A stretch of 63,921 nt of DNA, filler included, from Malassezia furfur (taxonomy: Eukaryota), in the NCBI GenBank assembly GCA_052055015.1. It is 3 parts of 3 records of this genome, joined end to end, with 100 filler letters (N's around TTAATTAATTAA, not from the genome) between each part and the next. Parts side by side here need not be neighbours in the genome. Positions count along the whole stretch, not along the records: positions 1 to 21,962 come from JBQJIT010000164.1; 2 more parts are not named here. One strand, 5' to 3'. This document shows, piece after piece, positions 4,612 to 43,901 of the stretch. The notes beneath the pieces were generated by a model. The model saw only the letters and a program-made list of their open reading frames with translations, searched no databases and was not told where the DNA came from. The translations under genes and the position numbers were made by a program. Each line of letters starts with the position of its first letter. Position 1 is the first letter of the stretch.

Positions 4612-6474
4612 ATGAAGTCGCTAAAGGACTTGCGCATGACGCTGAAGGATAGACCTTCTTCTGGATCTCGTTCTGCCTCGGTTTCGATAGGAGGCACCAA
4701 GCATGCCAGCTCACTCCAGCCCCCCAAGCAGGTGATTCATGCGGCCATGGGATACGAGTCTCAGAGCCCGTCCGAGCTGAGCTTCCACCGCGGCGATTTC
4801 TTTCACGTCGTTGCAAGCCAGACGCCAGGACTCCGGCCCGGTTGGATCGAGGCATGCAATCCGATGACCAATGCGCGAGGCCTGGTCCCCGAATCCCACT
4901 TTGATATCCTGCAGCGCAGCTCACCCGCGACAGCGTTCAACTTGACGGGTCGCAGCGAGCTCAACCCCAATGGCATCCTGCCCGGCTCGTCTTCCACCCG
5001 GTCACGGCCCCCTTCGGGAAGCTCGCCCAGCAGCTGGTTTGCGACCGTCAAGCACGACTTTTTGGCGGAGCGGTCACAGGAGCTGGACGCCAAAGAGGGC
5101 GACAGCCTGCTCGTGGTAGCACGGTCGGACATGGACTGGCTGGTCGCCAAGCCTTTGGGCCGCCTGGGCCTGCCCGGGCTCATCCCGACAGGGTTCATTG
5201 TGTTCCGCGATACGGTCACGGGTGAGCCCATTTCCAACACTGCATCCAAGTCGATCGTCGATCAACTGCCCACTGTACAAGAATGGCAGGAGAAGAACGA
5301 ACGCTACCATCGGAACGCTATACCCCTTGGCCGCTTTGAGACGGCGGCGATCGAACCATCGACACTGACCAAGACGCGAGACAGTCCGTTGCCCCCCCTC
5401 CCCGGCGACCATGTTGCGAATACGGATACTATGTCTCATCGAAGGTCCTATTCTCCCCGTAATTCTTCGACGCTGGACGACAACTTTGCGACGACCCACG
5501 ACCCCATTTCGCCCCACATGCACCCCCACTCGCCTGTGTATTCCACCAACCGGACTTCGCGGTCAAGTCCTACGGATCAGTCGCTCACCCAATCCATGTA
5601 CTTTTTGCCAGCTGGCCTCATGATCTCGGCGGCGGTGGACGCTTTTCATTATGAACCCAACGATTACTGGTATCGGTTGCGTGTCTCTTACGTTTCCACT
5701 CTGTCTTCTGCGGATGCTCCCGATAAACCGCAGGGCCACGAAGTGCGTGAGCTAGTCTTGTACCGCTTGTACGAGGACTTTGTCGAGTTTCATGCTTCTT
5801 TGGCGCACGAGTTAATGGGCAACAACCCATCCAGTGACTCGGTCCTCCTTGATTCTCTCCCCCATCTTCCTGTATCCTTGTCGAAAATCGACGAGCGGGC
5901 GGCCTCGCAGCGCCGGGCGGAGCTGGACGTCTATCTACGGCAACTGTCGACGTGCAGCGAACAGATCCTTCGGTCTGCTCCCGTTCGAGGGTTCCTCGAG
6001 TTGCGCCCTGGCGACCGCTGCAAAACTTCGGTGACCGTGTCGAAGCCACGCCTTGGGGGGGGATCAACCTCCGGATCGCCGAATCATTCTGAATTTGACC
6101 TTGCTTCACGTCTCCAAGGTTCCACGGCCGTTACCAATCCGCGCCGCTATTCGCACAATGAGTCGTTGTCTCCGACAATGTCCTCCAAGCGCAGCTCGGA
6201 AGCTACGCTACCGATCGATTCGGCTCCGTATTTCCGCGTGAAAGTGGTGCGACGGGACGACCCGGAACATATCTTGGCCGTACGGATGCCGCCCAATTTT
6301 TCTTACCAATACTTACTGCAAAAGATCCAAGATCGTCTTGGATCAGATCTCCGCGTCTTGCAGCCTAGCGAGCAACGAGACGGGATGACACTTTTTAACG
6401 ACGACGATGTCCATGCATGGATGCACGCAGCCCTGACCTCGGGCCAAAAGCTCTTCCTCTATGCGGACAAGTAG
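4612..6474 (+). CDS. BEM1: Polarity scaffold Bem1/Scd2 (SH3-SH3-PX-PB1)
   Basis: SH3 (ELSFHRGDFFHV..RGLVP), second SH3 (HDFLAERSQELDAKEGD..PLGRLGLPGLIP), PX (LYRLYEDFVEFH..RRAELDVYL) and C-terminal PB1. Confidence 0.88.
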   Translation: MKSLKDLRMTLKDRPSSGSRSASVSIGGTKHASSLQPPKQVIHAAMGYESQSPSELSFHRGDFFHVVASQTPGLRPGWIEACNPMTNARGLVPESHFDILQRSSPATAFNLTGRSELNPNGILPGSSSTRSRPPSGSSPSSWFATVKHDFLAERSQELDAKEGDSLLVVARSDMDWLVAKPLGRLGLPGLIPTGFIVFRDTVTGEPISNTASKSIVDQLPTVQEWQEKNERYHRNAIPLGRFETAAIEPSTLTKTRDSPLPPLPGDHVANTDTMSHRRSYSPRNSSTLDDNFATTHDPISPHMHPHSPVYSTNRTSRSSPTDQSLTQSMYFLPAGLMISAAVDAFHYEPNDYWYRLRVSYVSTLSSADAPDKPQGHEVRELVLYRLYEDFVEFHASLAHELMGNNPSSDSVLLDSLPHLPVSLSKIDERAASQRRAELDVYLRQLSTCSEQILRSAPVRGFLELRPGDRCKTSVTVSKPRLGGGSTSGSPNHSEFDLASRLQGSTAVTNPRRYSHNESLSPTMSSKRSSEATLPIDSAPYFRVKVVRRDDPEHILAVRMPPNFSYQYLLQKIQDRLGSDLRVLQPSEQRDGMTLFNDDDVHAWMHAALTSGQKLFLYADK

Positions 6475-6871
6475 CGGAAACACCACCGCATTCATCGATA
6501 CTAAAACATCTTTTCCCTTAACCGCTACCAAACACTGATTTTTCTTTTTATTTCTTTTCTTTTTTTGGAGATCCCCTTACCGATGAACGCACACACCAAC
6601 GTATCTTGTACAGTTCAGTATAGATGAGCCCCAATCCGATGGCTTTTTGGTTGAAAACACCACGAATGGGCATTCTGAAGCGAATAGGTGTTTGGGAGCC
6701 TGCCCGCCAACACCGCTTCATTGCATACAAGATATCGTGTGGTAGAGCGACCACTCTTGACCGAAATGCGATGTAGACGTGGCAAGCTGTCCGAATTACA
6801 CCATGTCTGGGAGTCCCTTGCCATATGCACGATGGTTCCCGGGCAACGTACGGGGAAGCACCCTCGTCCTC

Positions 6872-7633
6872 TTACTCCTGGCTCTCCTCGTGCACCATAC
6901 CGTCGGTGATGTACGGAGGAATACCACCGAAGCCTTCGAGGGCCTGGCGCTTCTCGTTCGCGTGCACCATGCCGTCCGTGATGTACGGGGGAATGCCACC
7001 CATGCCCTCCTCAGCCTGGCGCTTCTCGTTCACGTGAACCATACCGTCGGTGATGTACGGGGGAATACCGCCCATACCCTCCTCAGCCTGACGCTTCTCG
7101 TTCACGTGGACCATACCGTCGGTGATGTATGGAGGAATGCCACCGAAGCCTTCCAGGGCCTGGCGCTTCTCGTTCGCGTGCACCATGCCGTCGGTGATGT
7201 ACGGGGGAATGCCACCCATGCCCTCCTCAGCCTGGCGCTTCTCAACCATGGTAATCTCGTTGGGGATCCACTTGCCCTCTGGGCGCTGGCGCTTCATCAT
7301 CTTGTCCTGGGGCGCAGCAGCCTGCTCGCCACGCTTCTCGACCATAGTGATCTCGTTGGGGATCCACTTGCCCTCGGTCTTGCCATCGCGCTTCATGACC
7401 TGGTAGATGTAGTTAGGGACCCACTTGCCCTGGGGCTTCGCGGCTTCCTCATCGCGCTTCTCGACCATGGTGATCTCGTTGGGGATCCACTTGCCCTCAA
7501 CCGTCCCACCACGCTTCTCAACCATAGTGATCTCGTTGGGGATCCACTTGCCCTCCTTCTGGATGGGCGAAGCCTTCACGATCACAGCGCTCAGAGCGCA
7601 CGCAACAAACAGAGCCGAAAGCTTGACCTGCAT
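6872..7633 (-). CDS. Secreted Kex2-processed repeat protein (multi-core peptide precursor), 253 aa
   Basis: Signal peptide MQVKLSALFVACALSAVIVKA, then 11 segments separated by 10 KR sites: 4x EGKWIPNEITMVEKR, one variant, one short segment and 5x QAxEGxGGIPPYITDGMVH. TATATA lies about 65 bp upstream. Confidence 0.9.
   Translation of the reverse strand: MQVKLSALFVACALSAVIVKASPIQKEGKWIPNEITMVEKRGGTVEGKWIPNEITMVEKRDEEAAKPQGKWVPNYIYQVMKRDGKTEGKWIPNEITMVEKRGEQAAAPQDKMMKRQRPEGKWIPNEITMVEKRQAEEGMGGIPPYITDGMVHANEKRQALEGFGGIPPYITDGMVHVNEKRQAEEGMGGIPPYITDGMVHVNEKRQAEEGMGGIPPYITDGMVHANEKRQALEGFGGIPPYITDGMVHEESQE
6875..7234 (-). repeat. Five tandem 72-bp coding repeats (type B peptide units)
   Basis: Units 6875-6946, 6947-7018, 7019-7090, 7091-7162 and 7163-7234 are near-identical. 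Confidence 0.95.
7235..7570 (-). repeat. Imperfect coding repeats (type A peptide units)
   Basis: Recurrent (A/G)GT(A/G)ATCTCGTTGGGGATCCACTTGCCCTC on the plus strand, encoding EGKWIPNEIT. Confidence 0.9.
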
Positions 7634-7697
7634 GCTGGAAAGAGGACAACGATGCGCGAGGCAGAGCTGGGTGATTAAAGAGATGGACCCGAGATAG

Positions 7698-7703
7698 TAT
7701 ATA
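7698..7703 (-). promoter_or_regulatory. Putative TATA box of the repeat-peptide precursor gene
   Basis: TATATA about 65 bp upstream of the ATG at 7633. Confidence 0.45.
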
Positions 7704-8110
7704 GGGATTGCGGTTTCAGGGGCCTGGTGATCCGTTTCCCCCCGTTCCCTACTATCCAAGTTAAAATGGAAATTGCGCATCTTATTCGTTCATTTGTGAA
7801 TGTGCCAAGTTACCTGCATGGATTCTGTGCTTTCTGCCTGGCCTTATGCAATCCATGCGCTCCGCTACAGCGCGCATGTATGATTGGCTTTGGGCGGAGC
7901 AAGCCACGTGACTCTCGACGCCGCCCGACTTCGTCGCCCATCCAACACCCACGGCCCTGCGGTGCTTGAAGCGCACGCGTCGGAATACGCGATCCAGCTT
8001 CATTGCACGGCGGCTCTCCTCCAAAAAACCCTCAAGGTCGGATGATCTTTGTCCCAGAACGCCAGCGTTGATCTCACGGCTGATTGTTCCGTCGGAAGTC
8101 TACATTTCCC

Positions 8111-9643
8111 ATGACGAACCCCTCGGACTCGAAACACACCCCGCAGCGGTCGTCGTTCCATCAGGACACCTCGGACAAATCTCGGCGATATTCAGGGGCG
8201 CAGTCTCGGAATAGCCGTCATCTGTCCGGCTCGCCTGCGCCAGGGGTGCCCAACTACCTCCCGATGCCGGCGGACGCCCTGGGCCGCGGCGCCGGCGTCC
8301 CCGATATGATGCAGTGGCCCATGGCTGGCGCGCCGAACAACGTATCTATGCTTGCGGACGCGTACGGCGCATCTCATGGCCAGCCTCAGTCGGGTATGGG
8401 GGGTATGAACTGGTTCAATGGTGCAAACCCTCTCGCGATGGGTGACCTAAACCAAGCGTCGTTTGGGATGCCGCTCATGGGCGGCGGCCCCGCCGGCATG
8501 CCGAACGTGCCCCAGCTCTCCACTGCGCAGCTCGCACAGCAGCTGAACGCGCTGCACCTCCAAAATCAACAAAATGAGCAGATTCTTATGCAACAAAACA
8601 AGCTGCTGGCGCAGATCCAAGCGGCGCAGGAGCTGCGTGCCCAAGCGGAGCTCGAGGCGTCCACTGCGCAACAGCAGCAGCAGCAGCAAAACAACCCCTT
8701 GCTCCAATTCGCTCAGTCCCATCAGATACCAACGGATCTTCCCACGAATCGCCGCCACGCCATCAGTTCACGCCCTAAGCACTCCTCGGAGCAAGTGCCG
8801 CCTCGGTCGCACTCGCCCAATCCCGCGCGGGCCTCAGCACCGCAGGGCAACCGGTTCAGCTCCGGCTCCGGCTCGCCCTCGATCAACTTGCCTAGCGGTG
8901 GGCAGCTTCCACCGGACCTGTCCAAGGCGCTGTCCGCCATGAATGCCATTCGGCAATCTACCAGCGATGCCCACTACGACACGCCTGACTCCTCGTTCAG
9001 CCAAAGTCCCCGGCCCTCTTCCTATTCGGGCCGCGACCGGAACCGCGAAAGCGGCAGCTGGGCGCAGAATCCGCGCAGCGACGCGCGTCGCACATCGGCG
9101 GTGCAACGCAGCGAGCGCGCCCCAGAGTTCCACACTCCGGACCGGGCGCAGGCGTCCCCGCCCTCGATTATCATTGACCGCGCGGAGATGGAGTCGAGCA
9201 CGCTTTCGCCTCTGCCGCCGTCCATCCCCGTGGATGTCAACTCCGTCGGGATGCGCATTGGGCAGCGGATTGTTCCGGGGGTCAACGCGGAGTCGAGCGC
9301 AGGAACCACTTTGCCAAGCACGCCCAACAGTCGTCCAGACAAGCGCCATTCGTATTCGGAACTCGGTGCGAACAAATCTGGTGGCGCGCGGGGCCCGGAG
9401 CAAGTGAGTCCCAGGCCCTTGAGTATGTCGGCGGCGACACAGACGCCCCTGATCCAGCCCCGGCGTCAGCCGCGCGGCCCTCCTACGGAATCCTTCTTCG
9501 CAAACAATTTCCTCGCACGCCGCTCGCTGCGTACGCGCCGTGAGGCTATGTCGAAACTATGTGCAAGCCCCCGTGCCGCGAGTTTCAGCGGACCCAAACC
9601 CAACGCGCAAGCCGTCTCGTCCCCTCTAGCCCGTCAATCGTGA
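8111..9643 (+). CDS. Hypothetical Q/N/S-rich low-complexity protein
   Basis: Long ORF with an M/G/N-rich segment, a poly-Q coiled segment and C-terminal QPRRQPRGPP..NNFLARR..RREAMSKL. Confidence 0.7.
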   Translation: MTNPSDSKHTPQRSSFHQDTSDKSRRYSGAQSRNSRHLSGSPAPGVPNYLPMPADALGRGAGVPDMMQWPMAGAPNNVSMLADAYGASHGQPQSGMGGMNWFNGANPLAMGDLNQASFGMPLMGGGPAGMPNVPQLSTAQLAQQLNALHLQNQQNEQILMQQNKLLAQIQAAQELRAQAELEASTAQQQQQQQNNPLLQFAQSHQIPTDLPTNRRHAISSRPKHSSEQVPPRSHSPNPARASAPQGNRFSSGSGSPSINLPSGGQLPPDLSKALSAMNAIRQSTSDAHYDTPDSSFSQSPRPSSYSGRDRNRESGSWAQNPRSDARRTSAVQRSERAPEFHTPDRAQASPPSIIIDRAEMESSTLSPLPPSIPVDVNSVGMRIGQRIVPGVNAESSAGTTLPSTPNSRPDKRHSYSELGANKSGGARGPEQVSPRPLSMSAATQTPLIQPRRQPRGPPTESFFANNFLARRSLRTRREAMSKLCASPRAASFSGPKPNAQAVSSPLARQS

Positions 9644-10075
9644 CCTCCACCAGCCTGTGAATAACCTTTCTACCGAATTGCACATGGTTCCCAATTTCTT
9701 CCAATTGCAAAACAAGCCCCGAGCCGCAGTCGGAGTTTTTGGCGGACTTAGGTTGGCGTTCTTCTGACCATCGGATCGTTTTTTTTAAATGGCCAATCAC
9801 ATATTTTCTCGCCAGGCGTCGGAAGCCGATGGACATGTCAATTATTGGCGGGCGCATGAATCGATTCGATCGCGCCCACAAGACGCGCGCTTAAGGCGTG
9901 AGATTGGAAATTTTGAAGAAGCAAGGGTGCACGACTCGTGAATGACAATTTCGGCAGGCACCGGACCAACGGATTTGCAAAGGAGGGTGCAAGAAGCGCC
10001 CTAACCGGCCGTGTACTTGGCTTTCTCCAGACGCCCGCGTGAACGGTCGTCCTTGCACGACCTGGCAACGCCACC

Positions 10076-12093
10076 ATGCCCCGTATGTATCTATCGACCC
10101 CCTCCATGCCGCCGTGCAGTGGCTAACACGTACTGCAGAAGAGAACTTAAACGACTTCTCCTTTGCCGCCGAGGGGCTCGCCGAGCAAGAGGCGTACAAT
10201 GCGCATCTCAGCAAATCGGGGCACGTTCCTGAACATCTTCCGGCGGGTGTGACACACATGCACGATGCCGTCGAGGTCCAAGTTCCGGAAGTCGAAGAGA
10301 ATTACTTCCCCAGCGAAGAGGAGCGCCGCACCTTGCGCCGTGTTCCCGAAAAACTATCCATGGCCGCGTTTGCCATTGGCGTGTGCGAGCTTGCGGAGCG
10401 GTTCAGCTACTATGGTGTGACGCAAGTGTTTACGAACTATATCTCGAACCCCATTCCCCTGGTGGATGGTCACTATTCGAACACCGGTGCGGCGAAGAAC
10501 GAACACAAGTCGGGTGCGCTCGGGCGGGGCAGCCAGGTGGCCAACGGGCTTGTCACTTTTAACCAGTTCTGGTGCTACGTGACGCCGTTGTTGGGTGCGT
10601 GGGTCGCCGATGCGCATCTGGGTCGCTTCAATACCCTCTGTGTCGGCGTGGCCATCGCCATGATTGGCCACATCATTCTGATCGTCTCCGGTGTGCCGGC
10701 CCTGCTTCCCAATGACCCGAGCGAAAGCTCCGACCGCGCCATTGCCTGTTTCGCCGTGGCCATCGTGATCATGGGCATTGGCACGGGCTTCTTCAAGAGC
10801 AACTGTTCTACTCTCATTGCAGAGCAGTCCAAAATCAAAGAGCAAACGGTGATCAAGCTCAAGTCGGGGGAAAAAGTCATCGTTGACCCCGCCTTGACCA
10901 TTGCGCGCATTTACCTCTGGTTCTATCTCATGATTAACATTGGCTCCTTCTGCGGTGAGCTCAGCATGGTATACGCGGAGAAATACGTTGGATACTGGTT
11001 GTCTTATATGCTTCCGACGCTCGTGTTCATCATTCCCATTCCGGTGCTGTGGTTTGGTCGAAATTATTACGTGAAGCTGCCTCCAGATGGCTCTGTGCTG
11101 GAACGTGCCTTGAAAGCGTGGGGCTTGGCTATTCGTACCAACTGGACCTGGAACTTGTCGACGTTCGTCAAGCGCTGCAAGTCCAGCACGTTCTGGGACC
11201 CTGCAAAGCCGTCGCACCTTGCCGAGTCCGAGCGGAAGCCCTGGATGGTGTACGAAGATCACTGGATTGACGAGCTGAGTCGCGGCATCAAGGCCTGTGC
11301 CGTATTCGTCCTTTTCCCTTTCTACTGGCTCTGCTATAACCAGATCATCAACAACCTCATCATCCAGGCCAACCAAATGGATCTTGGCTCGGCACCCAGC
11401 GAGATTGTCTCCTTGCTGGACCCCATCTTCATCATCGTGTTCGTGTTTGTCTTCAATATGGGTCTCTACCCCTTGCTTGACTACCTCCGCATCCCCTTCA
11501 CTCCGATCAAACGCATTGCGATTGGCTTTTTCTTTGCATCTTTTGCGATGGTGTGGTCCGCCGTGCTGCAACACTACATTTACAAACAGAACCCCTGTGG
11601 AGACCGCGTGGGCGACGCTGGCGTCACGATCAATGGCCTCGACTGCGGCACGCAGTATGCGTCGATGACGGTGTGGATTCAATCCGGCGCCTATATCCTC
11701 ATGGCCATCAGCGAGCTGTTTGCATCTGTGACATCGATGGAAATTGCCATGCTTATGGCGCCCAAGAACATGCGCTCGATTGTGATGGCCATCAGCCTGT
11801 TCACCACGGCCATCGCCGCGGCCATCGGTGAAGCATTCACGGCACTGTCTCGCAACCCGCTCTTTGTTGTCAACTATGCATTGTTTGCGGGCCTGTCGTT
11901 CGCTGGTGGCATTCTCTTCTACATGGTGTTCTACTCACTCGACCGGAGACAGGAGCAGCTCAATCTGCTCAGCCAGGAGGGATACATGCAAAATGCCTCC
12001 TCGGATGAAAAGAGTGAGAAGAGAGAAGACACCTCGGTTCAAAAAAATGAGACTCAGACCGACTCGCTGGCGCCCAGTCTGTCGTCGGCTTGA
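10076..12093 (+). CDS. PTR2: POT/PTR2-family di/tripeptide transporter
   Basis: ELAERFSYYG, GAWVADAHLGRF, GTGFFKSN, FYLMINIGS, APKNMRS. A 56-nt first intron (10083-10138) follows ATG 10076. Confidence 0.93.
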
Positions 12094-21962: not shown

Positions 21963-22062
21963 NNNNNNNNNNNNNNNNNNNNNNNNNNNNNNNNNNNNNN
22001 NNNNNNTTAATTAATTAANNNNNNNNNNNNNNNNNNNNNNNNNNNNNNNNNNNNNNNNNNNN
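21963..22062. other. Assembly linker / contig gap
   Basis: N44-TTAATTAATTAA-N44 with stops in all six frames; it truncates or borders genes on both sides. Confidence 0.97.
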
Positions 22063-25292: not shown

Positions 25293-25371
25293 GTCAGTGG
25301 AGTACCGTGCGCGGTGGTATAACGTAAGCAGGTTTGCCTCGCTAGCGCGAAGTGGGGTAAGGTTACATCTG

Positions 25372-26462
25372 ATGCATCCAAGCGTGTATTCGGAGTGTTT
25401 CCCGTACGTCTGGCGCTAATCCGAGCCCACCACCGAGCTGGTCCGCAAATGAAATTCCGGATCAAACTGGACGGGTACGATTCTTATCTCACGCAGATCG
25501 CTCTAGTCACAGGGGGAAATTCAGGGATTGGGTTAGAGACCGTTCGTGCGCTGCTTCGTAAGGGGAGCAAGGTATATATGGCAGCACGCAACGAGGCAAA
25601 GGCGCGCAATGAAATGGCCAATCTATTACAGGATCCAACAACAGCAAAAGGAGCGGTAGACTTTTTGCATTTGGACCTGGCTAGTTTCAGGAGCATCGAG
25701 CAGTTCGTGCGTGAACTTGGTCGCCGTGAGCAGCGCCTCGACCTTCTCTTCAATAATGCTGGACTTGTTATCCCCAACAGCGAGGGCCAGAAAACGGCCG
25801 AAGGCTACGAGATCCATATGGGTGTCAATGCTCTAGGAGTGTACTACCTCACTGTCCTCTTGCTTCCCTTGCTACGAATTTCGTATCAACACAACCCTAC
25901 ACGCCCCCCACGGGTATGCTTTACAAGCAGTCTTGCCCACCGCGCAGCACCTAGTTGCGGCTTCGACCCTACCGACCCTAGCGGAGCTCATATACGCTTT
26001 CGGGTGTTACCGACCTACATGCAAGCCTATGCGAACAGTAAAATGGCTGTCATTCTTGGTATGCTTCGTGCTCACATTCAGTTGCGCGCAAATTACAGCG
26101 TATGTACGGCAAAGATGGCATCGTCTTGTATGTGTCAACTTCACACAGCAATGCTTGCAACCCCGGCAATCTCAAGACAGGTATCACACGCCACGCCGGA
26201 TCATTTTCAACAGTACTTCTCAGCAACTTTATTGAGCCTTACCTGCTTTATTCCTCCGAGCTCGGCGCCTTAACCCAACTGTATGCCAACACGGCCTTTG
26301 AGGCAGGCGAGGATGGCGGGCAATACTTTGTTCCTTGGGCGCGCAAAGGCGCGTCTGCCCCCGCAGCCGACAGTCTAGAAGCACAAGACAGAGGTACGTG
26401 CACAAACCAACTCAGCTACCGAGTATTTTGATCAGGAAATCGCGAAGCACACTCAGGTGTAA
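25372..26462 (+). CDS. Short-chain dehydrogenase (RDH/WWOX-like), paralog 1
   Basis: IPDQTGRIALVTGGNSGIG, LFNNAG, YANSK. Introns 25404-25425, 25475-25496, 26059-26081, 26128-26148 and 26394-26415. Confidence 0.88.
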
Positions 26463-26554
26463 AGAGTTTCCCCTCTCCGCAAAATGCTTATGTACTCCAC
26501 ATAGTGATCGATTTCGTCCACGTAACCCCACACGATCGTGGCAGGGTAGTCGAC

Positions 26555-27574
26555 ATGGTGATCAGTGCAATTTTTCCGTACGTTTTGGATCTCACTCAGC
26601 CCGGCGCCTAGATGGCATCCCGAAACGGATATGCCAGACCAAACGGGTCGTGTATGTTGACTGACTTACTTAGATTGCTATTGTCACGGGGGGCAATGCA
26701 GGCATCGGCTACGAGACCGTTTACTGGTTGCTGAAAAAGAATGCGAAAGTGTACATGGCAGCCAGAAGTCAACAGCGTGCTGAATCTGCTATCTCGAAGC
26801 TGAGAAATGAGAACCTACCTGGCACTGTTGAGTTTATCCAGTTGGACTTGGCAGACCTGAACAACATCAAAAGCTTCCCGACGCGTTTCATGGAAAAGGA
26901 AAACCATATCGACATGCTTTTCAACAATGGCGGAGTTATGCTTCCTGAGTCTGGGCCTAAGACGACTGACGGCTATGAACTCCAACTGGGAACTAACGCC
27001 TTAGGCCATCACTATCTCACCAAACTTCTCATTCCCATGCTTGAAGCTTCTCAGAAAGCGACCCCGGATCGCAATCCGCGTGTGTGTTTTACCTCAAGCA
27101 TTGCACACCGTTTTGCCTCTCCGAATGGGTTCAACCCAGAAGACCCTACTGGTGTGAATACAAACAGGCCTTTCTACATTCCTCAGGTCAATCGAGAGTA
27201 CGGCACAAGTAAACTGGCCAACATCCTGTCTGCCAACAAATTTCAGCGCGAATATGGCTCGAAGGGTATTGTGTTCACATCAGTACATCCTGGTGCTTTG
27301 CGTACCGAGCTTATGCGAGACTGGCATTCGGTCGTTAGTCGCGTCCTGGCCTGGGCAATATTGTATCCCCAATCCATGGGCGCCTTGACACAGCTCTATG
27401 CTGTTACTGCCCCCGAGACTGGCACAAAGGGCGGGTGTTACTTTGTGCCTTGGGGACGAGAGGTTAAGCCTATGGCCATTGCTCTGAGTTCGAAAAACCA
27501 GGATGCTTGTACGTACCATTAAAACTGACCTAGTCGATAAATGGGCACTTGAACGGATCGAAAAGCACACATGA
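26555..27574 (+). CDS. Short-chain dehydrogenase, paralog 2
   Basis: MPDQTGRIAIVTGGNAGIG, LFNNGG, YGTSK. Introns 26578-26599, 26652-26673 and 27509-27533. Confidence 0.9.
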
Positions 27575-28082
27575 GCACTCTTGATTTTGGCAAGAACGAC
27601 TTCTCGGTTTCCTCGTTATTTTCGCTGACATGTTTTATCCAGTTATGCTTTCTTATTTTGGCTAAACGCTGCATCCATAATTTGTGGCCTGGAAGGCTTC
27701 GGAAGAATGCTACAAGCTTATTTTGAGTGTGCAATTTAAACATTGTCCGACAGTTGCCCGTGCTTCTATGATGAAGATGTATATGTGTAGGCGTCGAATC
27801 GCAAACCTTTGATGGGCTCACAGAAGTGTCAGCCACGTTACTAAATTGATTTGAAATAAATCGTAATTTTTTATCAAATGTGAAATCGGACTGCACATAG
27901 TTTAACGGGCTTCTGAGCAGCTTCTAGCGCTTGTCTAGAAGTAGCGAGAAGATCATGGCGACGCATCTCCGAGGGATAACGTCCTCAATATTGCTACAAG
28001 AATGGGGGGAAGAGAGAAATTAATTGAACTAATTATTGCGCGAGGGAAATGGACGTCCGCGGAGGTCTTCTGGTCAGTGTAG

Positions 28083-28088
28083 TATAAA
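28083..28088 (+). promoter_or_regulatory. Putative TATA box of SDR paralog 3
   Basis: TATAAA about 65 bp upstream of ATG 28152. Confidence 0.45.
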
Positions 28089-28151
28089 TTCGTAGCAGCC
28101 AGTGTATGGCCAACCGCTCACAAAGTAGAGCATATTGTTAAAATTGCTCCA

Positions 28152-29152
28152 ATGTTCTCGTATGTTTTTACCTTCTGATGACAGCCGCACACTTCTGTGG
28201 AATCCAGCGAAGGACATGCCCGACCAAACTGGCCGAGTATGTCACACCGATTAACGTAGATTGCCCTGGTCACAGGCGGCAACAGTGGTTTTGGCCTGGA
28301 GACTGTCCGATGGCTTTTGAAGAAAAACGCCAAGGTGTATATGGCTTGTCGCAGCAAACAGCGTGCTGAAGAAGCGATTGCCCAGCTGAAGAAGGAGAAG
28401 CTGCCTGGCAAAGTCGTTTTCATTCAGCTTGATTTGGCAAACTTGAACAACATCAAAGGTTTCCCGTCGCGTTTCAAAAAATATGAGGACCACCTTGACA
28501 TGCTTTTCAACAATGGCGGTGTCGCAGCCTTCAAGCCAAACCAACTCACTTCGGATGGTTATGAAATCATGCTGGGCACGAATGCCCTTGGTCATCATTA
28601 TTTGACCAGGCTGATGATTCCTTTCTTGGAAGAGTCTCAGAGGCTGACACCGAACCGCCCCCCGCGTGTCTGCTTCACTTCGAGCATGCTTCATCGCTTC
28701 GCTTCGCCGGAAGGATTCACGCCGAAAGATCCTACTGGCGCAGGTTCGAAGCCTTTCTATGTGTCTGCCGAAAACCGGATGTACGGCACTAGCAAGCTCG
28801 CCAACATTCTTTCTGCCAACAAGTTCCAGCGCGAATTTGGCGCCAAAGGCATCGTCTTCACATCGGTACACCCTGGCGTAGCAGGTACGGGAATCTTCCG
28901 TGAGATGAACCCTGTCATGCGCTGGTTCATGAGTCTATTTTTCGATTCGATGGAGAAAGGCTGCCTCACTCAGTTGTACGCCGTGACTGCTCCTGGTACG
29001 GAGACGAAAGGTGGATGCTACTTTGTACCCGTTGGCAAAGAAGAAGAGCCACTCCCGATTGCAAAGAGCGCAGAGAACCAGGATCTTTGTATGTTTTTGC
29101 AACTCACCCAGTCGACAGATGGGCCATGGAACAGGTCGCGAACAAAACCTAA
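28152..29152 (+). CDS. Short-chain dehydrogenase, paralog 3
   Basis: MPDQTGRIALVTGGNSGFG, LFNNGG, YGTSK. Introns 28160-28184, 28237-28259 and 29089-29111. Confidence 0.9.
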
Positions 29153-29658
29153 GAATGACGCAAAGCTAGTCCTTGTCCCCTTGTATATCTCCCATTGCTA
29201 TAGTAGTTTCGCATTAAGCTTTCCGTTACAGCGAGTTGCTGTATTCTCCCCGCAAGCGTCCGGCGTCGCTGGCGAGCAAGGAATGCATCTCTATGCATTC
29301 AGGGTTGCCGAGATATTTTAGCTATCCAACCAGTAACTTTATTTGTCAGCGAGGCTTCGGGTCCGTAACGCGAGCGTCCGGTTGGCTGGCACAATCTGCA
29401 GCGGCCGGTACATCGCTGGAGGAAAAAGGGAGGACATTGCTTGTTGTTCACCACCGTCTGGTGTCGTGAGCGACGGTAACCAACGTATGGTTGACCCTAT
29501 CTCGAACATTCATACTGTGTTTCAGCGTGTGCCGACTGCTGCCTCGTCCTTCAACCACTCCCGCTTGACGATCCTTCTCCTCAGTGACCTGGATTCCGAG
29601 CCGCCCTAAAACAGATTTCGCTTCGATTAGCCTATGGAACGTCGTGCTTGCGCATACG

Positions 29659-32343: not shown

Positions 32344-32472
32344 CGCAGTGTTTCGCCGTAGATCGGGAATTTACCTCCGCTTGGTCATCGGGCGCAGGGG
32401 ATTGGCCTGCGCTGCGCTCTTTGTTCTCGCGCAGCGACCATGCGTGGGGTCGGCGTACACTGGGTGCGCGCG

Positions 32473-34558
32473 ATGCTAGGTGCGCGCTCGGTGCGCCCAG
32501 CACTCGCGCGCTGGGCGCCCAGCGTGGCTGCAATGCGCCGCGCGCTCTCCACCGACAATGCCGAGTCCTTCTCCCACGCGCATTTCGACAAGGACGGCCA
32601 CAGTGACGAGCAGCTACCAGTCAAGGAGCACGCAGTGATCTCGACGTTTGACCTGTTCTCCATCGGCATCGGGCCCTCGTCGTCGCACACGGTCGGCCCG
32701 ATGCGCGCGGGTGCCATCTTTGTGAATGACCTGCGCGAGATGGGGCTCCTTGATAAGGTGCACACGCTCAAAGTCGCGCTGTACGGCAGTTTGGCAGCGA
32801 CGGGCAAGGGACACATGACGCCACAGGCGCTTCTGCTAGGCTTCGAGGGCGCCGACTGCGAGACGGTCGACACTGAGAGCGTCCCAGTGCGCTATCAGGC
32901 GATTGTCGACGACCAGGTGTTGACGCTCGGCAAGGATACCAACGACACCTACCACGACGCCAAGGAGATTCGGTTCAACTTTGACAAGGACCTCGAATGG
33001 AAGTGGGGGCAGACGCTTCCGATGCACTCCAATGGTATGCGTTTCAGCGTGTTTGACGTCAACGGTGACCTGCTCGGCACCAACGACTTTTACAGCATCG
33101 GCGGCGGGTTTGTGGTGAACGGCAAAATGGCGGTGGCCGAAGAGCCGGGGCCGCGACCGATGCGCACCGATGACGCGACCGTGGAAGAGACCTCTGGGCC
33201 CACAACGACCGCGCTGGACGCGCCCAAGCCAACTGAGGTGGTGCCGTCCGGGGTGGATCAACACCCAGAGGATATGCTCGAAAATGTCTTCTACAAGTCG
33301 CTGCGTCGCGACGATGCCGGCGGCGTGCGACGCAGCGGTGTCAACATGCATGCCAGCGAAAAGGATCTGATGCCGAACATGATTCCTATTGCCGGCGGCA
33401 CGCAGGACGAGCCCGACGCGCCTCCGCAGGGCAGCAACGACCCTCGCTTCCCCTTCCACAACATGGCGAGCCTGCTGGCACTCACGCGCAAGCACAATCT
33501 GACCATCGCACAGATTGTGTACGAAAACGAGCTGACGTGGTACACCCCGGAGGAGATCGACGCAAAGCTCATGCGCATCTGGAGTGTCATGGACGAAGGC
33601 ATCCGTGCGGGGGTGCACAGCACGCAGGAAGTGCTGCCTGGCTCACTGCGCATGAAGCGGCGTGCGCCCAAACTTTACGCACGGCTTATGCGTGGCCTGT
33701 ACATGGGTCCCCGCCGTTTGGGGCACATGTCCGGCGACGTCGGCGATGCCATCGACCGGCCCAAGGGTGCGGGTGAGGTTGAGCGCCTGCCGAAGCCCGA
33801 GCGCGATGCGACCAATGTCCCTGCACGCTACATGCGACGCGAGGTGTCGCGCACACCCAAGATCCGCGGCTCGTTCCAGCACGAGGTGGTGCCCGTACCT
33901 CCGCGGCGCCCCAACTTCCCTGCGATGGACTGGCTGTCGTGCTGGGCAATTGCGACGAACGAGCAGGTAGCGTCGGGCGGGCGCATTGTAATCGCGCCGA
34001 CACTGGGCGCAGCGGGCATCATTCCGTCGGTGCTGCGCTACGTGGTGGAGTTTGTGGCCCTGTCGCCGGAGGACGAGGAGAACCTCGTGCGCACCTTTTT
34101 GCTGACCGCCGCGGCGATCGGCATGCTGTTCAAGCGTGGCGCGACGATCAGCGCCGCCGAGGGCGGGTGCATGGCCGAGGTCGGTACTAGCTGCTCCATG
34201 GCGGCCGCGGCGTTTGCGGCGTGCATGGGCGCCAGTCCCGAGGTGATTGAGCAGGCGGCTGAGACTGCGATCGAGCACAACCTCGGCCTGACGTGCGATC
34301 CGGTGGACGGCCTTGTGCAGGCGCCGTGCATCGAGCGCAACGCCGTCGGCGCCGTCAAGGCCGTGGTGAGTGCGAATTTGGCACTTTCGACGGGCGGCGA
34401 CCACTCGATTTCGCTCGATGAGGCGATCCACGCTGCGCGTCTCACGGCCGCCGACATGCATATGAAATACAAGGAAACGAGGTACGCATCCCTTCTGACC
34501 CAGTCTGAGCGGCCTGGCGACCACGGTCAAGATCCCCGTCGCGGTGCCCGAGTGTTAG
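32473..34558 (+). CDS. Fe-S-dependent L-serine dehydratase (bacterial SdaA-type, single chain) with putative mitochondrial presequence
   Basis: FDLFSIGIGPSSSHTVGPMRA, LYGSLAATGKGH, YSIGGGF, AEGGCMAEVG, LGLTCDPVDGLVQAPCIERN. A 22-nt intron (34482-34503) restores KYKETSLSGLA..EC*. Alternative start at 32440. Confidence 0.9.
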
Positions 34559-34596
34559 CATGTAGGTGTGTATCACATAAGCGTCGCTCTGCGACC

Positions 34597-36276
34597 ATGG
34601 CGTTTTCGTTCGGCAAGGCGCCAAGCACGGGCGCGACGCCGGGGCTGTTTGGCAACCCGGGCGCGGGTGCACAGGGCACACAGGGCAATGCCCAGCCAAG
34701 CCAGCCGACCACGTCCGGCTTCTCGTTCGGCTCGACGGGATCTGGCGGGCTGTTTGGCCAGCCGAACTCGGGCACTCAGGCGTCGCAGCCGTCGTCGACC
34801 GGCGGGCTGTTTGGTCAGAGCACCGCGGGCACACAGTCTGCGCCGTCGGGCGGCTTGTTTGGCCAGAATACCTCGGCGTCGCAGCCGGGGCAGTCGAGTC
34901 TGTTTGGCCAGAATACGTCCGCGTCGCAGCCGGGGCAATCGGGCGGGCTGTTCGGCCAGAAGAACCAGGCGCCGTCGCAGCCGGGGCAGACCGGCGGGCT
35001 GTTTGGCCAGTCAAGCCAGAACCAGACGCAGCAAGGGCAGTCGGGCGGCCTATTTGGCCAGTCGACGACGCAGCCCCAGGGGCAGACGGGCGGTCTGTTC
35101 GGCCAGTCGACGACGCAGCCCCAGGGGCAGACGGGCGGCCTGTTTGGCCAGTCAACAGCGCAACCGCCTGCACAGACCGGTGGCCTGTTTGGTCAGGCAT
35201 CCGGGTCGGCTACGCAGGGTGCGCCGTCGACCGGCCTGTTTGGCCAGTCGACGACGCAGCAGCCGTCGCAGACCGGGGGCCTGTTCGGTACGTCGCAGGC
35301 GCAGTCCAAGCCGGCGCTTGGCTTTGGTGCATCGCAGCCATCATCAAGCCTGTTTGGGTCTCAGGCCAAGCCCGGGGCGCCGTCTGCGCAGCCCGGCGCG
35401 ATGGGCGCGAGCACCGCAGGCGCTGCACCGGATGCCAAGCTCGGTGCACCGCTCAACGCTCAGTTGGAGCAAATTCGGGCGAGTTGGGACACGTCGAACC
35501 TGGCGACATGCCGTTTCCAGCACTATCTGTACAACCGCGCGAGCGATCCGCAGGCGTTGCAGCAGCTCACCGTGCGCCGTCCCGACGCCGTGGGGCCGAT
35601 GCACGACGCGCTGTGGGCCAAGGCGATGCAAGAGAACCCTGAGCCAGAGCGTCTATACCCTGTGCTCGCTGTCGGTTTTAGCGACCTGCGCGCGCGAGTG
35701 CAGGTGCAGGAGACCGAGGCGGTGCGGCAGCACAACAAGCTCGCGGAGCTGGCCAAGCAGCTTGCGGCGCTGCAGCAGAAACACGACTTGTCCAACACGA
35801 TTCGTGCGCAGTCGGCGATGCTGATGCAGTCGCGCATCCACCAGCGTCTCCTGTCGCTCGTGAAGGACTGCGCGACGTTGATCCCCGCGCTGCGCAACCA
35901 GGGGATGACCGCCGCCGAGGACCAGCTGCTCGTCACGCTCGAGACGTGCGAAGCGCAACTGAACGGCGCCGCGGGTGCTGCGGATGCGGCGCCACAGCAA
36001 GCGCTGCTACGTGCGCAGGTCAACGAGCTCTGGGCGCAGCTCGGTGTGGTGCGTGCGCGCCGCGAGGCGCTCGCGAGCCAGGGGCGCGTCGACAGCGGCA
36101 ACACCGAGTGGGCCGTCGTCGACGAGGCAAGCTTCGAGGAACTGACGAGCATCCTTGCCTCGCTGCAGCAGGGCCTGTTGCACCTGACTGGCATCCTCAG
36201 CGCGGACACCAAGGCACTCAACATGGTGTGCGACGGCCTGACGGGCGTGCCGCTGGTTGGAGTACGGAATCGGTAG
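34597..36276 (+). CDS. NUP57: GLFG nucleoporin Nup57/Nup54
   Basis: Many GGLFGQ repeats, then CRFQHYLYN, LWAKAMQENP..LYPVLAVGFSDLRARV and coiled coils. Confidence 0.88.
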   Translation: MAFSFGKAPSTGATPGLFGNPGAGAQGTQGNAQPSQPTTSGFSFGSTGSGGLFGQPNSGTQASQPSSTGGLFGQSTAGTQSAPSGGLFGQNTSASQPGQSSLFGQNTSASQPGQSGGLFGQKNQAPSQPGQTGGLFGQSSQNQTQQGQSGGLFGQSTTQPQGQTGGLFGQSTTQPQGQTGGLFGQSTAQPPAQTGGLFGQASGSATQGAPSTGLFGQSTTQQPSQTGGLFGTSQAQSKPALGFGASQPSSSLFGSQAKPGAPSAQPGAMGASTAGAAPDAKLGAPLNAQLEQIRASWDTSNLATCRFQHYLYNRASDPQALQQLTVRRPDAVGPMHDALWAKAMQENPEPERLYPVLAVGFSDLRARVQVQETEAVRQHNKLAELAKQLAALQQKHDLSNTIRAQSAMLMQSRIHQRLLSLVKDCATLIPALRNQGMTAAEDQLLVTLETCEAQLNGAAGAADAAPQQALLRAQVNELWAQLGVVRARREALASQGRVDSGNTEWAVVDEASFEELTSILASLQQGLLHLTGILSADTKALNMVCDGLTGVPLVGVRNR

Positions 36277-43801: not shown

Positions 43802-43901
43802 NNNNNNNNNNNNNNNNNNNNNNNNNNNNNNNNNNNNNNNNNNNNTTAATTAATTAANNNNNNNNNNNNNNNNNNNNNNNNNNNNNNNNNNNNNNNNNNN
43901 N
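43802..43901. other. Assembly linker / contig gap
   Basis: N44-TTAATTAATTAA-N44. Confidence 0.97.

What the first reader, a model, noticed from the sequence alone, without database searches (positions are those of the whole stretch)
6872..7633. Secreted Kex2-cleaved precursor releasing two families of short peptides
Seen: a signal peptide followed by 11 segments separated by 10 Lys-Arg sites. Type A has an invariant core EGKWIPNEITMVE four times, behind variable leaders (SPIQK, GGTV, DGKT, QRP), plus a variant QGKWVPNYIYQVM. Type B is QA(E/L)EG(M/F)GGIPPYITDGMVH five times. Known: this is the architecture of fungal Kex2-processed repeat proteins, such as alpha-factor precursors, Ustilago Rep1 repellent, Candida Ece1 and dikaritin RiPP precursors like UstA. 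Inference: I do not recognise these cores, so this may be an undescribed secreted peptide system (signal, surface repellent/amyloid, antimicrobial or RiPP). Gln directly after KR suggests pyroglutamate capping, and Trp/Tyr offer cross-linking sites.
Basis: partly seen in the sequence, partly recalled or inferred. Interest (0 to 1): 0.88.

Follow-up and report, generated by a model that had tools for sequence, protein, structure and literature searches.

The report
Malassezia secreted Kex2-cleaved repeat peptide precursor
This is a real gene for a secreted precursor that is probably cut into about ten short acidic peptides of two related kinds; the precursor type is common in fungi, but this peptide family looks undescribed and limited to a few Malassezia skin yeasts.

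Summary
The minus-strand ORF 6872-7633 encodes 253 aa: a signal-peptide-like N-terminus, 10 Lys-Arg sites and 11 segments (4 identical type A cores, 1 variant, 1 core-less spacer, 5 type B units).

The repeats are under selection for the peptide. All 15 pairwise nucleotide differences among the type A cores are at third codon positions, and none changes an amino acid. KR occurs 10 times against 0.9 expected.

It meets the sequence criteria for a KEX2-processed repeat protein (KEP). Five relatives were found among billions of proteins. Two are named, from M. yamatoensis and M. psittaci, and three are unnamed. In the two named species the gene sits beside the same neighbour gene as here.

No DUF3328/UstYa or other tailoring gene turned up in 160 ORFs of the window, and Tyr is replaced by Glu in 4 of 5 type A cores. 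The likeliest products are therefore linear peptides, perhaps pyroGlu-capped, not a dikaritin RiPP.

The predicted peptides are 12-24 aa, acidic and hydrophilic, unlike repellents or candidalysin. Function is unknown. Expression and cleavage could not be tested.

Verdict: a new member of a known kind, of moderate interest.

The parts
6872..7633 (-). Complete single-exon CDS of the precursor (253 aa plus TAA stop at 6872-6874)
   Evidence: GC3 is 0.81 and the CAI-like index 0.74, against 0.61 and 0.44 for the antisense ORF 6803-7678. Homologues align from the same MQ[VIF]K start.
7571..7633 (-). Signal-peptide-like N-terminus (aa 1-21, MQVKLSALFVACALSAVIVKA); the cut after VKA is inferred
   Evidence: the hydrophobic region is 15 aa with mean KD 2.63, and there is no other hydrophobic stretch (maximum KD19 after residue 22 is 0.56). 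This N-terminus is conserved in 5 of 5 full-length family members. No SignalP was run.
7511..7570 (-). Type A unit 1: SPIQK-EGKWIPNEITMVE-KR
7454..7510 (-). Type A unit 2: GGTV-EGKWIPNEITMVE-KR
7388..7453 (-). Type A variant: DEEAAKPQGKWVPNYIYQVM-KR. It keeps the Tyr seen in the type A-like units of the other family members (K-aromatic-I-P-x-Y-I).
7331..7387 (-). Type A unit 3: DGKT-EGKWIPNEITMVE-KR
7289..7330 (-). Core-less spacer GEQAAAPQDKMM-KR between the A block and the B block. A similar spacer (..QGKMIVKRQRP.. / ..SSGMKRKR..) occurs in relatives.
7235..7288 (-). Type A unit 4: QRP-EGKWIPNEITMVE-KR
6875..7234 (-). Five type B units of 24 aa (72 nt) each: QA(E/L)EG(M/F)GGIPPYITDGMVH(A/V)NE-KR. 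The last one ends ...HEESQE at the C-terminus.
   Evidence: Within GGIPPYITDGMVH every codon difference between copies is synonymous.
7698..7703 (-). TATA-like hexamer about 65-70 nt upstream of the ATG; a possible core promoter element (inference only)
   Evidence: read from the sequence; not tested
8111..9643 (+). Divergently oriented neighbour: a Gln-rich gene with no Pfam family that serves as the synteny marker
   Evidence: Its orthologues MYAM1_000209 and MPSI1_000210 carry locus tags next to those of the KEP orthologues MYAM1_000210 and MPSI1_000211.

Best explanation
The ORF is a real protein-coding gene of a Malassezia yeast. Its named relatives are M. yamatoensis and M. psittaci, and the closest named species for its neighbour gene is M. 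obtusa; placing these in the M. furfur group is my recollection, not a tool result. The gene encodes a KEX2-processed repeat protein (KEP).

Proposed mechanism; every step is inferred from the sequence and from the established KEP/alpha-factor pathway, and none is shown here:
1. The signal peptide takes the precursor into the ER and is removed after Ala21.
2. In the late Golgi a kexin cuts after each of the 10 Lys-Arg pairs.
3. A Kex1-type carboxypeptidase trims the C-terminal Lys-Arg.
4. Eleven fragments are secreted: five type A peptides of 16-20 aa (four with the identical core EGKWIPNEITMVE), five type B peptides of 22-24 aa (core GGIPPYITDGMVH) and one 12-aa spacer.
5. The six fragments that start with Gln probably become pyroglutamate-capped.

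The peptides are most likely linear or minimally modified, not cyclised RiPPs. Types A and B are diverged copies of one ancestral unit (E-G-x-x-I-P-x-Y-I-G/T-x-V/G-L/M).

The amino acid sequence of each core is held constant while synonymous sites drift, and the cores differ between species. I therefore favour peptides that act through a specific partner (a receptor or target, as an extracellular signal or in interaction with other organisms or the host) over a bulk physico-chemical role. The actual function is unknown.
For: Real coding gene on the minus strand:
- GC3 is 0.81 and the CAI-like index 0.74, against 0.61 and 0.44 for the overlapping plus-strand ORF.
- Among the four type A cores, all 15 pairwise nucleotide differences are at third codon positions, with dN = 0 and dS 0.13-0.77.
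- Type B differences by codon position are 28/22/78.

KEP architecture:
- Signal-peptide-like start and no further hydrophobic segment.
- 10 KR sites giving 11 fragments, and 10 of 11 Arg in KR.
- 0 of 100,000 shuffles reach 10 KR.

Family:
- phmmer against 1.84 billion representatives gave 9 hits. 4 are real relatives and 5 are unrelated repeat proteins.
- A profile search added M. psittaci MPSI1_000211.
- All 5 full-length members share the MQ[VIF]K[LV]S signal start and A-like and B-like units. A spacer resembling the window's is visible in P0002, P0003 and P0011.
- 35 of 41 units are followed within 14 residues by KR or by the C-terminus.

Synteny: the neighbour's orthologues have locus tags adjacent to the KEP orthologues in 2 of 2 named species.

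No tailoring genes: 0 of 53 long plus 107 short ORFs hit DUF3328, tyrosinase, P450 or a methyltransferase.

No fold: AF2 mean pLDDT is 40.8 with 0 residues at or above 70 (single sequence, so weak evidence).

Precedent:
- Linear, pyroGlu-capped, KEX1-trimmed KEP peptides were detected by MS in basidiomycetes (Vogt 2022, PMC9769878, abstract and passages).
- M. sympodialis is scored KEX1 yes, KEX2 yes in Le Marquer 2019, Table S1b.
Against: - No evidence of transcription, secretion or cleavage could be obtained.
- The signal peptide was judged by rule of thumb, not by SignalP.
- 6 of 41 repeat junctions in the family, all in M. yamatoensis and M. psittaci, have lost KR (EKS, ETR, ER). Cutting at every junction is therefore not strictly maintained.
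- The window shows only about 7 kb on one side of the gene, and tailoring enzymes can lie elsewhere in a genome.
- The inference of a specific partner rests only on the selection pattern.
- The gene itself was not found in the protein collection although its neighbour was. It may simply be uncalled, but this gives no independent support.
Confidence: 0.75

Rival explanations
1. Dikaritin-type RiPP precursor. After Kex2 cutting, the cores are macrocyclised through Tyr or Trp side chains by a UstYa/DUF3328 oxidase encoded elsewhere in the genome.
For: - It has the same precursor layout as ustiloxin-type precursors (signal peptide, repeats, KR).
- The cores hold an aromatic residue next to Ile/Pro.
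- 22% of all KEPs have a DUF3328 gene within the 15 closest genes (Umemura 2020, passages).
Against: - 0 of 160 ORFs across the 64-kb window hit DUF3328 or tyrosinase.
- Tyr is replaced by Glu in 4 of 5 type A cores of this gene, and by His or Gly in some B units of relatives.
- Only 6.1% of basidiomycete KEPs have a nearby DUF3328 gene (Umemura 2020, passage).
- The cores are 13+ conserved residues, much longer than the 4-6-residue dikaritin cores (the dikaritin core length is recalled, not tested).
Confidence: 0.07
2. Surface-active or wall-associated structural peptides, like the Ustilago maydis Rep1 repellents. They would coat the cell wall or form amyloid-like fibrils.
For: - Malassezia belongs to the Ustilaginomycotina, as does U. 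maydis (recalled).
- Rep1 is also a Kex2-cut repeat protein (passages).
- AF2 draws short beta-hairpins in each B unit, but at pLDDT of about 45-60.
Against: - The peptides have net charge -1 to -5 and GRAVY -1.0 to 0.0, and are 12-24 aa long, against 37-aa amphipathic repellents (Le Marquer 2019, passage).
- No Ustilago protein is among the 9 phmmer hits.
- Strict amino acid conservation of a 13-residue core is more than a bulk surface role needs (inference).
Confidence: 0.1
3. An uncleaved, secreted or wall-bound repeat protein (adhesin-like or PIR-like) in which the KR pairs are simply part of the repeat.
For: - 6 of 41 junctions in relatives lack KR and yet the units persist.
- The I-T-D-G-M-V stretch faintly recalls the PIR repeat (recalled).
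Against: - No PIR (PF00399) hit in 5 of 5 members at E up to 10.
- No Cys framework, no N-glycosylation sequon, no Ser/Thr-rich stalk and no GPI-like hydrophobic C-terminus.
- Arg is almost confined to KR.
- No confident fold.
Confidence: 0.05
4. Not a gene. The frame would be a chance open frame in a GC-rich tandem DNA repeat, or the real gene would be the plus-strand ORF 6803-7678.
For: - The genome is 62% GC and full of long spurious frames.
- The protein is absent from the protein collection.
Against: - The synonymous-only divergence between repeat copies.
- Codon usage favours the minus strand.
- Syntenic, annotated homologues exist in two species.
Confidence: 0.02

Closest known systems
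KEX2-processed repeat proteins (KEPs) of basidiomycetes, e.g. the Coprinopsis cinerea KEPs studied by Vogt et al. 2022 (PMC9769878)
   Same: Signal peptide, tandem short cores separated by KR, and no tailoring genes nearby. The expected products are linear, KEX1-trimmed peptides, often pyroGlu-capped. Function is unknown: kep knockouts in C. cinerea gave no phenotype.
   Different: No sequence similarity was detected. Here two diverged peptide types are arranged as an A block and a B block in one precursor. The family is confined to a few Malassezia.
Ascomycete alpha-factor-type pheromone precursors (MF_alpha)
   Same: Several near-identical copies of a peptide of about 13 residues containing W/P/Y, released by Kex2 and Kex1. 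The core evolves quickly between species but stays uniform within a precursor. The language-model feature search of the M. yamatoensis homologue placed an MF_alpha cluster 4th at 0.83, below the tool's 0.9 bar, so this is only a lead.
   Different: No MF_alpha or MF_alpha_N Pfam hit. No repeated X-Ala/X-Pro Ste13 spacer, only a single QA in the type B units, and that is not conserved in relatives. M. sympodialis was scored STE13-negative. Basidiomycete mating pheromones are lipopeptides of another type (Le Marquer 2019, passage).
Ustilago maydis Rep1 repellent precursor
   Same: A Kex2-cut repeat precursor in the same subphylum (passages).
   Different: Rep1 peptides are about 37 aa, amphipathic and wall-bound. 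The peptides here are 12-24 aa, acidic and hydrophilic. No homology was detected.
Dikaritin RiPP precursors (UstA, PhomA, GigA)
   Same: KEP-type precursor layout.
   Different: No DUF3328/UstYa gene in the window. The aromatic residue is not invariant. The conserved cores are much longer.
Candida albicans Ece1 / candidalysin
   Same: A KR-processed secreted precursor in a human-associated yeast.
   Different: Ece1 peptides are non-identical, and candidalysin is a hydrophobic, cationic helix (recalled). The peptides here are repeated, Pro-containing and anionic.

Membership tests
KEP (criteria of Le Marquer et al. 2019, PMC6339444, methods passage) | N-terminal signal peptide and no transmembrane segment | tested here: met
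   Rule of thumb only: MQVK, then a 15-aa hydrophobic stretch (mean KD 2.63), then VKA. Maximum KD19 after residue 22 is 0.56. SignalP and TMHMM were not available.
KEP (criteria of Le Marquer et al. 2019, PMC6339444, methods passage) | In-silico cleavage at KR/RR gives at least 4 fragments of at least 2 aa | tested here: met
   11 fragments of 12-24 aa (after KR trimming) from 10 KR sites
KEP (criteria of Le Marquer et al. 2019, PMC6339444, methods passage) | At least 3 similar repeated fragments | tested here: met
   4 identical type A cores plus 1 variant, and 5 type B units
KEP (criteria of Le Marquer et al. 2019, PMC6339444, methods passage) | Actual cleavage by a kexin and secretion of the peptides | not testable with these tools
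   No genome and no read data. From the literature only: M. sympodialis is scored KEX2 yes and KEX1 yes.
Dikaritin / ustiloxin-type RiPP | A DUF3328 (UstYa) gene near the precursor (within the 15 closest genes in Umemura 2020) | tested here: not met
   0 of 160 ORFs (53 of at least 200 aa over the whole window, 107 of 90-199 aa over 1-30000) hit DUF3328. Only about 4 genes are visible on the left side of the gene.
Dikaritin / ustiloxin-type RiPP | An invariant aromatic residue in the core for the ether cross-link | tested here: not met
   For type A, Tyr is replaced by Glu in 4 of 5 cores. All 5 type B units of this gene keep Tyr, but some B units in relatives have His or Gly.
Dikaritin / ustiloxin-type RiPP | A macrocyclic product | not testable with these tools
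   Needs mass spectrometry
Alpha-factor pheromone precursor (Pfam MF_alpha, MF_alpha_N) | Match to the Pfam models | tested here: not met
   No hit in 5 of 5 members at E up to 10
Alpha-factor pheromone precursor (Pfam MF_alpha, MF_alpha_N) | Repeated X-Ala/X-Pro Ste13 dipeptides after KR | tested here: not met
   Only one QA per type B unit and none in type A. The relatives have QM, QV, AE or DA-PE instead.
Rep1 repellent family | Sequence homology to Ustilago Rep1 | tested here: not met
   None of the 9 hits of the exhaustive phmmer search carried a name in that output. 4 are the relatives described here and the other 5 are repeat proteins whose sequences share no core with this family. The Rep1 sequence itself was not compared directly.
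PIR cell-wall proteins | PIR repeat (PF00399) | tested here: not met
   No hit in 5 of 5 members at E up to 10

The most novel reading that the evidence does not exclude
The two peptide types are a lineage-specific extracellular signalling system of M. furfur-group Malassezia. They could be an autocrine or quorum-type signal, a cryptic alpha-factor-like pheromone in a basidiomycete, or peptides aimed at skin cells or co-resident microbes. Each invariant core would be read by a dedicated receptor or target. The dN = 0 pattern within a precursor, combined with core turnover between species, would then reflect peptide-receptor co-evolution.
Probability: 0.2. Interest if true: 0.75.

Novelty: new member of a known kind. 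Interest (0 to 1): 0.4.

Why it matters
Malassezia are the dominant fungi of human skin, and some cause disease. Very few of their secreted small molecules are known.

A single gene that could deliver ten copies of two conserved peptides per translation event is a cheap, testable candidate for cell-cell or host-microbe communication. The Candida Ece1/candidalysin story shows that such precursors can matter clinically.

The gene also seems to be missed by gene calling in this assembly: its neighbour is in the protein collection and it is not. One pipeline used for skin-fungal genomes masks repeats before gene prediction (passage). If that was also done here it could explain the miss, and KEPs may be under-counted in Malassezia.

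Against this, KEPs are very common. Umemura 2020 counted 7878 in 1345 strains, 2560 of them without homologues (abstract passage). The only reverse-genetic study in basidiomycetes found no knockout phenotype (abstract).

Tried and rejected
- **Pfam on the precursor.** DUF7213 (32.9 bits) and Sas-5 implico (31.8 bits) pass the whole-protein cut-off only by summing repeats; DUF7213 has no single stretch that passes on its own, and the best Sas-5 stretch covers only 18 residues. Relatives hit other families (PRAP in M. psittaci) or none at all. I rejected these as repeat artefacts.
- **phmmer hits P0006-P0010.** They are unrelated repeat proteins and were rejected on reading their sequences.
- **Whole-genome search of the window's assembly.** No genome is held.
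- **Cluster members and accessions.** The database is switched off. I therefore could not check whether the four Malassezia KEPs listed by Umemura 2020 belong to this family. They are KOS13306.1, AXA49303.1, PKI83116.1 and PKI83686.1, all 'type 0'. None surfaced as a hit.
- **JGI metagenome scan with the family profile.** 6 pattern matches, none confirmed by tblastn.
- **ESM Atlas.** Busy or closed for the window protein. For the M. yamatoensis homologue all feature scores were below 0.9 and the structure hits named no family.
- **AF2 single-sequence model.** No confident fold, so no fold search was made.
- **Earlier findings of this scan.** Nothing by place or by sequence.
- **Full-text search for six core motifs.** 80 papers, of which the 15 listed were irrelevant. 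The one 'PYITDG' match is an unrelated synthetic anticancer peptide.
- **Malassezia + Kex2 (13 papers) and Malassezia + Rep1 + repellent (1 paper).** Nothing on such a precursor in Malassezia.
- **The first literature search** was badly framed, with any-term matching, and gave nothing useful.
- **Le Marquer 2019 supplements.** M. sympodialis is listed with 1 KEP, but the held files do not give its sequence or id.
Full report
**1. The observation**

The feature is a minus-strand ORF. ATG is at 7633 and the TAA stop at 6872-6874, giving 253 aa. Removing 21 N-terminal residues and cutting after each Lys-Arg yields 11 segments from 10 KR sites:
- four segments ending in the identical core EGKWIPNEITMVE-KR, behind the leaders SPIQK, GGTV, DGKT and QRP
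- one variant, DEEAAKPQGKWVPNYIYQVM-KR
- one core-less spacer, GEQAAAPQDKMM-KR
- five 24-aa type B units, QA(E/L)EG(M/F)GGIPPYITDGMVH...

Two details were missing: the strand, and the fact that one segment has no core.

Ten of the 11 Arg residues are in KR. 100,000 shuffles of the mature sequence gave a mean of 0.90 KR, a maximum of 6, and none reached 10. At the DNA level Tandem Repeats Finder reports a 72-nt unit x4.9 at 84% matches and a 123-nt unit x1.8.

**2. Is it a gene, and on which strand?**

The genome is 62% GC and full of long chance frames. One of them is a 291-aa plus-strand ORF lying over this one. Three results favour the minus strand.
- **Codon usage.** GC3 is 0.81 on the minus strand against 0.61 on the plus strand. 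A codon index built from five neighbouring genes gives 0.74 against 0.44; the reference genes themselves score 0.52-0.86.
- **Selection between repeat copies.** All 15 pairwise nucleotide differences among the four type A cores are at third codon positions and none changes an amino acid (dN 0, dS 0.13-0.77). Among the type B units the differences fall 28/22/78 by codon position. Inside GGIPPYITDGMVH every codon difference is synonymous. The copies are therefore old enough to have drifted, and the peptide sequence is what is kept.
- **Homologues.** They align from the same start codon.

The longer upstream frame (ATG at 7780) adds residues that have no counterpart in the two NCBI models. The upstream extensions in two unnamed gene calls do not resemble each other.

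**3. Relatives**
- A word-indexed search of 5.8 billion proteins gave 3 hits.
- An exhaustive phmmer search of 1.84 billion cluster representatives gave 9 hits at E <= 0.001. Four are real: P0002, P0003, P0004 and the 43-aa fragment P0005, which is 88% identical. Five are unrelated repeat proteins.
- A profile search added P0011.

The named members are hypothetical proteins MYAM1_000210 of Malassezia yamatoensis and MPSI1_000211 of M. psittaci. The others come from unnamed assemblies.

All five full-length proteins begin MQ[VIF]K[LV]S.LF and carry units of the form E-G-K-(W/F/Y)-I-P-x-Y-I... as well as units of the form E-G-x-G-I-(P/N)-P-x-(I/L)... The core-less spacer (..GKM..KR-QRP.. or ..GMKRKR..) is visible in four of the five: the window, P0002, P0003 and P0011.

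I collected 41 units with a pattern anchored on [IV][PN]xx[IL]; those three positions are therefore conserved by construction. Of the 41, 40 were long enough to tabulate. Outside the anchor, 25 of 40 have Gly at -3, 26 of 40 have Tyr at +3, and 37 of 40 have Gly or Val at +7. Types A and B thus look like diverged copies of one ancestral unit.

35 of the 41 units are followed within 14 residues by KR or by the C-terminus. The six exceptions, all in M. yamatoensis and M. psittaci, have EKS, ETR or ER instead.

**4. Genomic context**

Pfam scans of 53 stop-to-stop frames of at least 200 aa over the whole window, and of 107 frames of 90-199 aa over 1-30000, show ordinary housekeeping neighbours:
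- AP-complex mu subunit, WLM protease, a glycosyl hydrolase and an SH3-PX protein (convergent, ending at 6474)
- the precursor gene itself
- a Gln-rich gene with no Pfam family (8111-9640, divergent)
- a PTR2/POT peptide transporter, an S4-domain protein, SAM synthetase, and so on

None of the 160 frames hits DUF3328/UstYa, tyrosinase, P450 or a methyltransferase.

The Gln-rich neighbour has orthologues MYAM1_000209 and MPSI1_000210. These are the locus tags directly beside the precursor orthologues, so the gene pair is syntenic in three species. The closest named orthologue of the neighbour is from M. obtusa (68% identity), which places the window in a Malassezia related to that group. No M. 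obtusa precursor was returned. Whether it is absent or merely uncalled is open.

The window's own neighbour protein is in the collection (P0013, 100%), but the precursor is not. This suggests the gene was not called in the source annotation.

**5. What it most likely does**

The protein meets the sequence criteria that define KEX2-processed repeat proteins: a signal peptide, no membrane segment, at least four KR/RR fragments and at least three similar repeats (Le Marquer 2019, methods passage; tests).

The established pathway for such precursors runs as follows (Vogt 2022, introduction passage):
1. signal peptidase in the ER
2. kexin cleavage after the dibasic pairs in the late Golgi
3. Kex1 trimming of the basic residues
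4. secretion

Applied here, it predicts eleven peptides of 12-24 aa and 1.28-2.60 kDa. All are acidic (net -1 to -5, pI 4.1-5.0) and none is hydrophobic overall (GRAVY -1.0 to 0.0). They have no Cys and no N-glycosylation sequon.

Six would start with Gln. N-terminal pyroglutamate was the common modification on basidiomycete KEP peptides detected by MS (Vogt 2022, passages). The post-KR Gln is shared with P0002 but not with the M. yamatoensis or M. psittaci B units, which begin AEEG.

Le Marquer 2019 Table S1b scores M. sympodialis as KEX1 yes, KEX2 yes, STE13 no. Consistently, there is no conserved X-Ala/X-Pro spacer here.

All processing steps are inferred. Nothing here shows transcription, secretion or cleavage.

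**6. Rivals**
- **Dikaritin RiPP.** No tailoring gene is seen in the window. Tyr is replaced by Glu in 4 of 5 type A cores. Only 6.1% of basidiomycete KEPs have a nearby DUF3328 gene (Umemura 2020, passage). Only about 7 kb is visible on one side of the gene and the rest of the genome could not be searched, so I keep this rival at 0.07.
- **Repellent or amyloid surface peptides.** The charge, hydrophilicity and length differ from the 37-aa Rep1 peptides (Le Marquer 2019, passage), and no Ustilago homologue was found. I keep it at 0.10.
- **An uncleaved repeat or wall protein.** There is no PIR hit in any of 5 members, no Cys, no GPI-like tail and no confident fold (AF2 mean pLDDT 40.8, single sequence). 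The six decayed junctions in relatives keep it alive at 0.05.
- **Not a gene.** About 0.02.

**7. Comparison with what is known**

It works like a KEP and I file it as one. It is not a member of the MF_alpha, Rep1, PIR or dikaritin families on the features tested; the membership table gives the details.

Umemura 2020 lists four Malassezia KEPs, from M. pachydermatis, M. restricta and M. vespertilionis, all 'type 0' with no homologues (Table S2 rows). It found none in M. globosa or M. sympodialis (Table S1 rows). Le Marquer 2019 lists one in M. sympodialis.

I could not fetch those sequences. None appeared among the hits, so they are probably unrelated, but that is not shown.

Searches of the held library found no description of this family:
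- the phrase 'Kex2-processed repeat': 22 papers
- Malassezia + Kex2: 13 papers
- Malassezia + Rep1 + repellent: 1 paper
- six core motifs: 80 papers, of which the 15 listed were irrelevant
- M. furfur + secretome + signal peptide + repeat: 3 papers, 2 listed

The supplements of bioRxiv preprints, and papers outside the library, were not seen.

**8. Verdict**

This is a genuine and well-read observation: a genus-restricted KEP with two related peptide types under strong purifying selection, in a human skin yeast, apparently unannotated in this assembly.

It is a new member of a known and very large class: 7878 KEPs, of which 2560 have no homologues (Umemura 2020, abstract passage). It has no functional evidence, and the one reverse-genetic study of basidiomycete KEPs found no knockout phenotype. 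Interest is 0.4.

The boldest reading still open is a lineage-specific peptide signal or a host-directed peptide with a dedicated receptor. I give that about 0.2.

Noticed in passing
window 21963-22062 and 43802-43901: There are two identical patterns of 44 N, 12 bases, 44 N. They look like masked or withheld stretches, and both lie at the edges of long open frames.
   Followed up: no
window 25323-29318 (+): Three short-chain dehydrogenase (adh_short) frames lie in a row: 25323-26270, 26674-27519 and 28260-29318. This may be a small tandem gene family.
   Followed up: no
window 9946-12090 (+): A PTR2/POT peptide transporter lies two genes from the precursor. PTR2 carries di- and tripeptides (recalled), so a link to 12-24-aa peptides is not expected. 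Whether the adjacency is conserved in other species was not checked.
   Followed up: no
window 32362-36273 (+): One stop-free frame carries both serine dehydratase alpha/beta domains and Nup54/FG-nucleoporin domains. It is probably two adjacent genes that happen to share a frame, not a fusion.
   Followed up: no
window 8111-9640 (+): This Gln-rich, low-complexity protein has no Pfam family and is conserved across Malassezia, at 32-88% identity among the 27 strongest of 35 hits at E <= 1e-5. The remaining 8 are weak partial matches, one of them from Tilletia. It is divergently oriented to the precursor gene, about 480 bp away, so the two may share a promoter region.
   Followed up: partly
window 6872-7633 (-): The precursor is absent from the 5.8-billion-protein collection although its neighbour from the same window is present. 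A close relative is represented only by a 43-aa fragment (P0005). Tandem-repeat genes of this kind seem to be missed or truncated by gene callers.
   Followed up: partly
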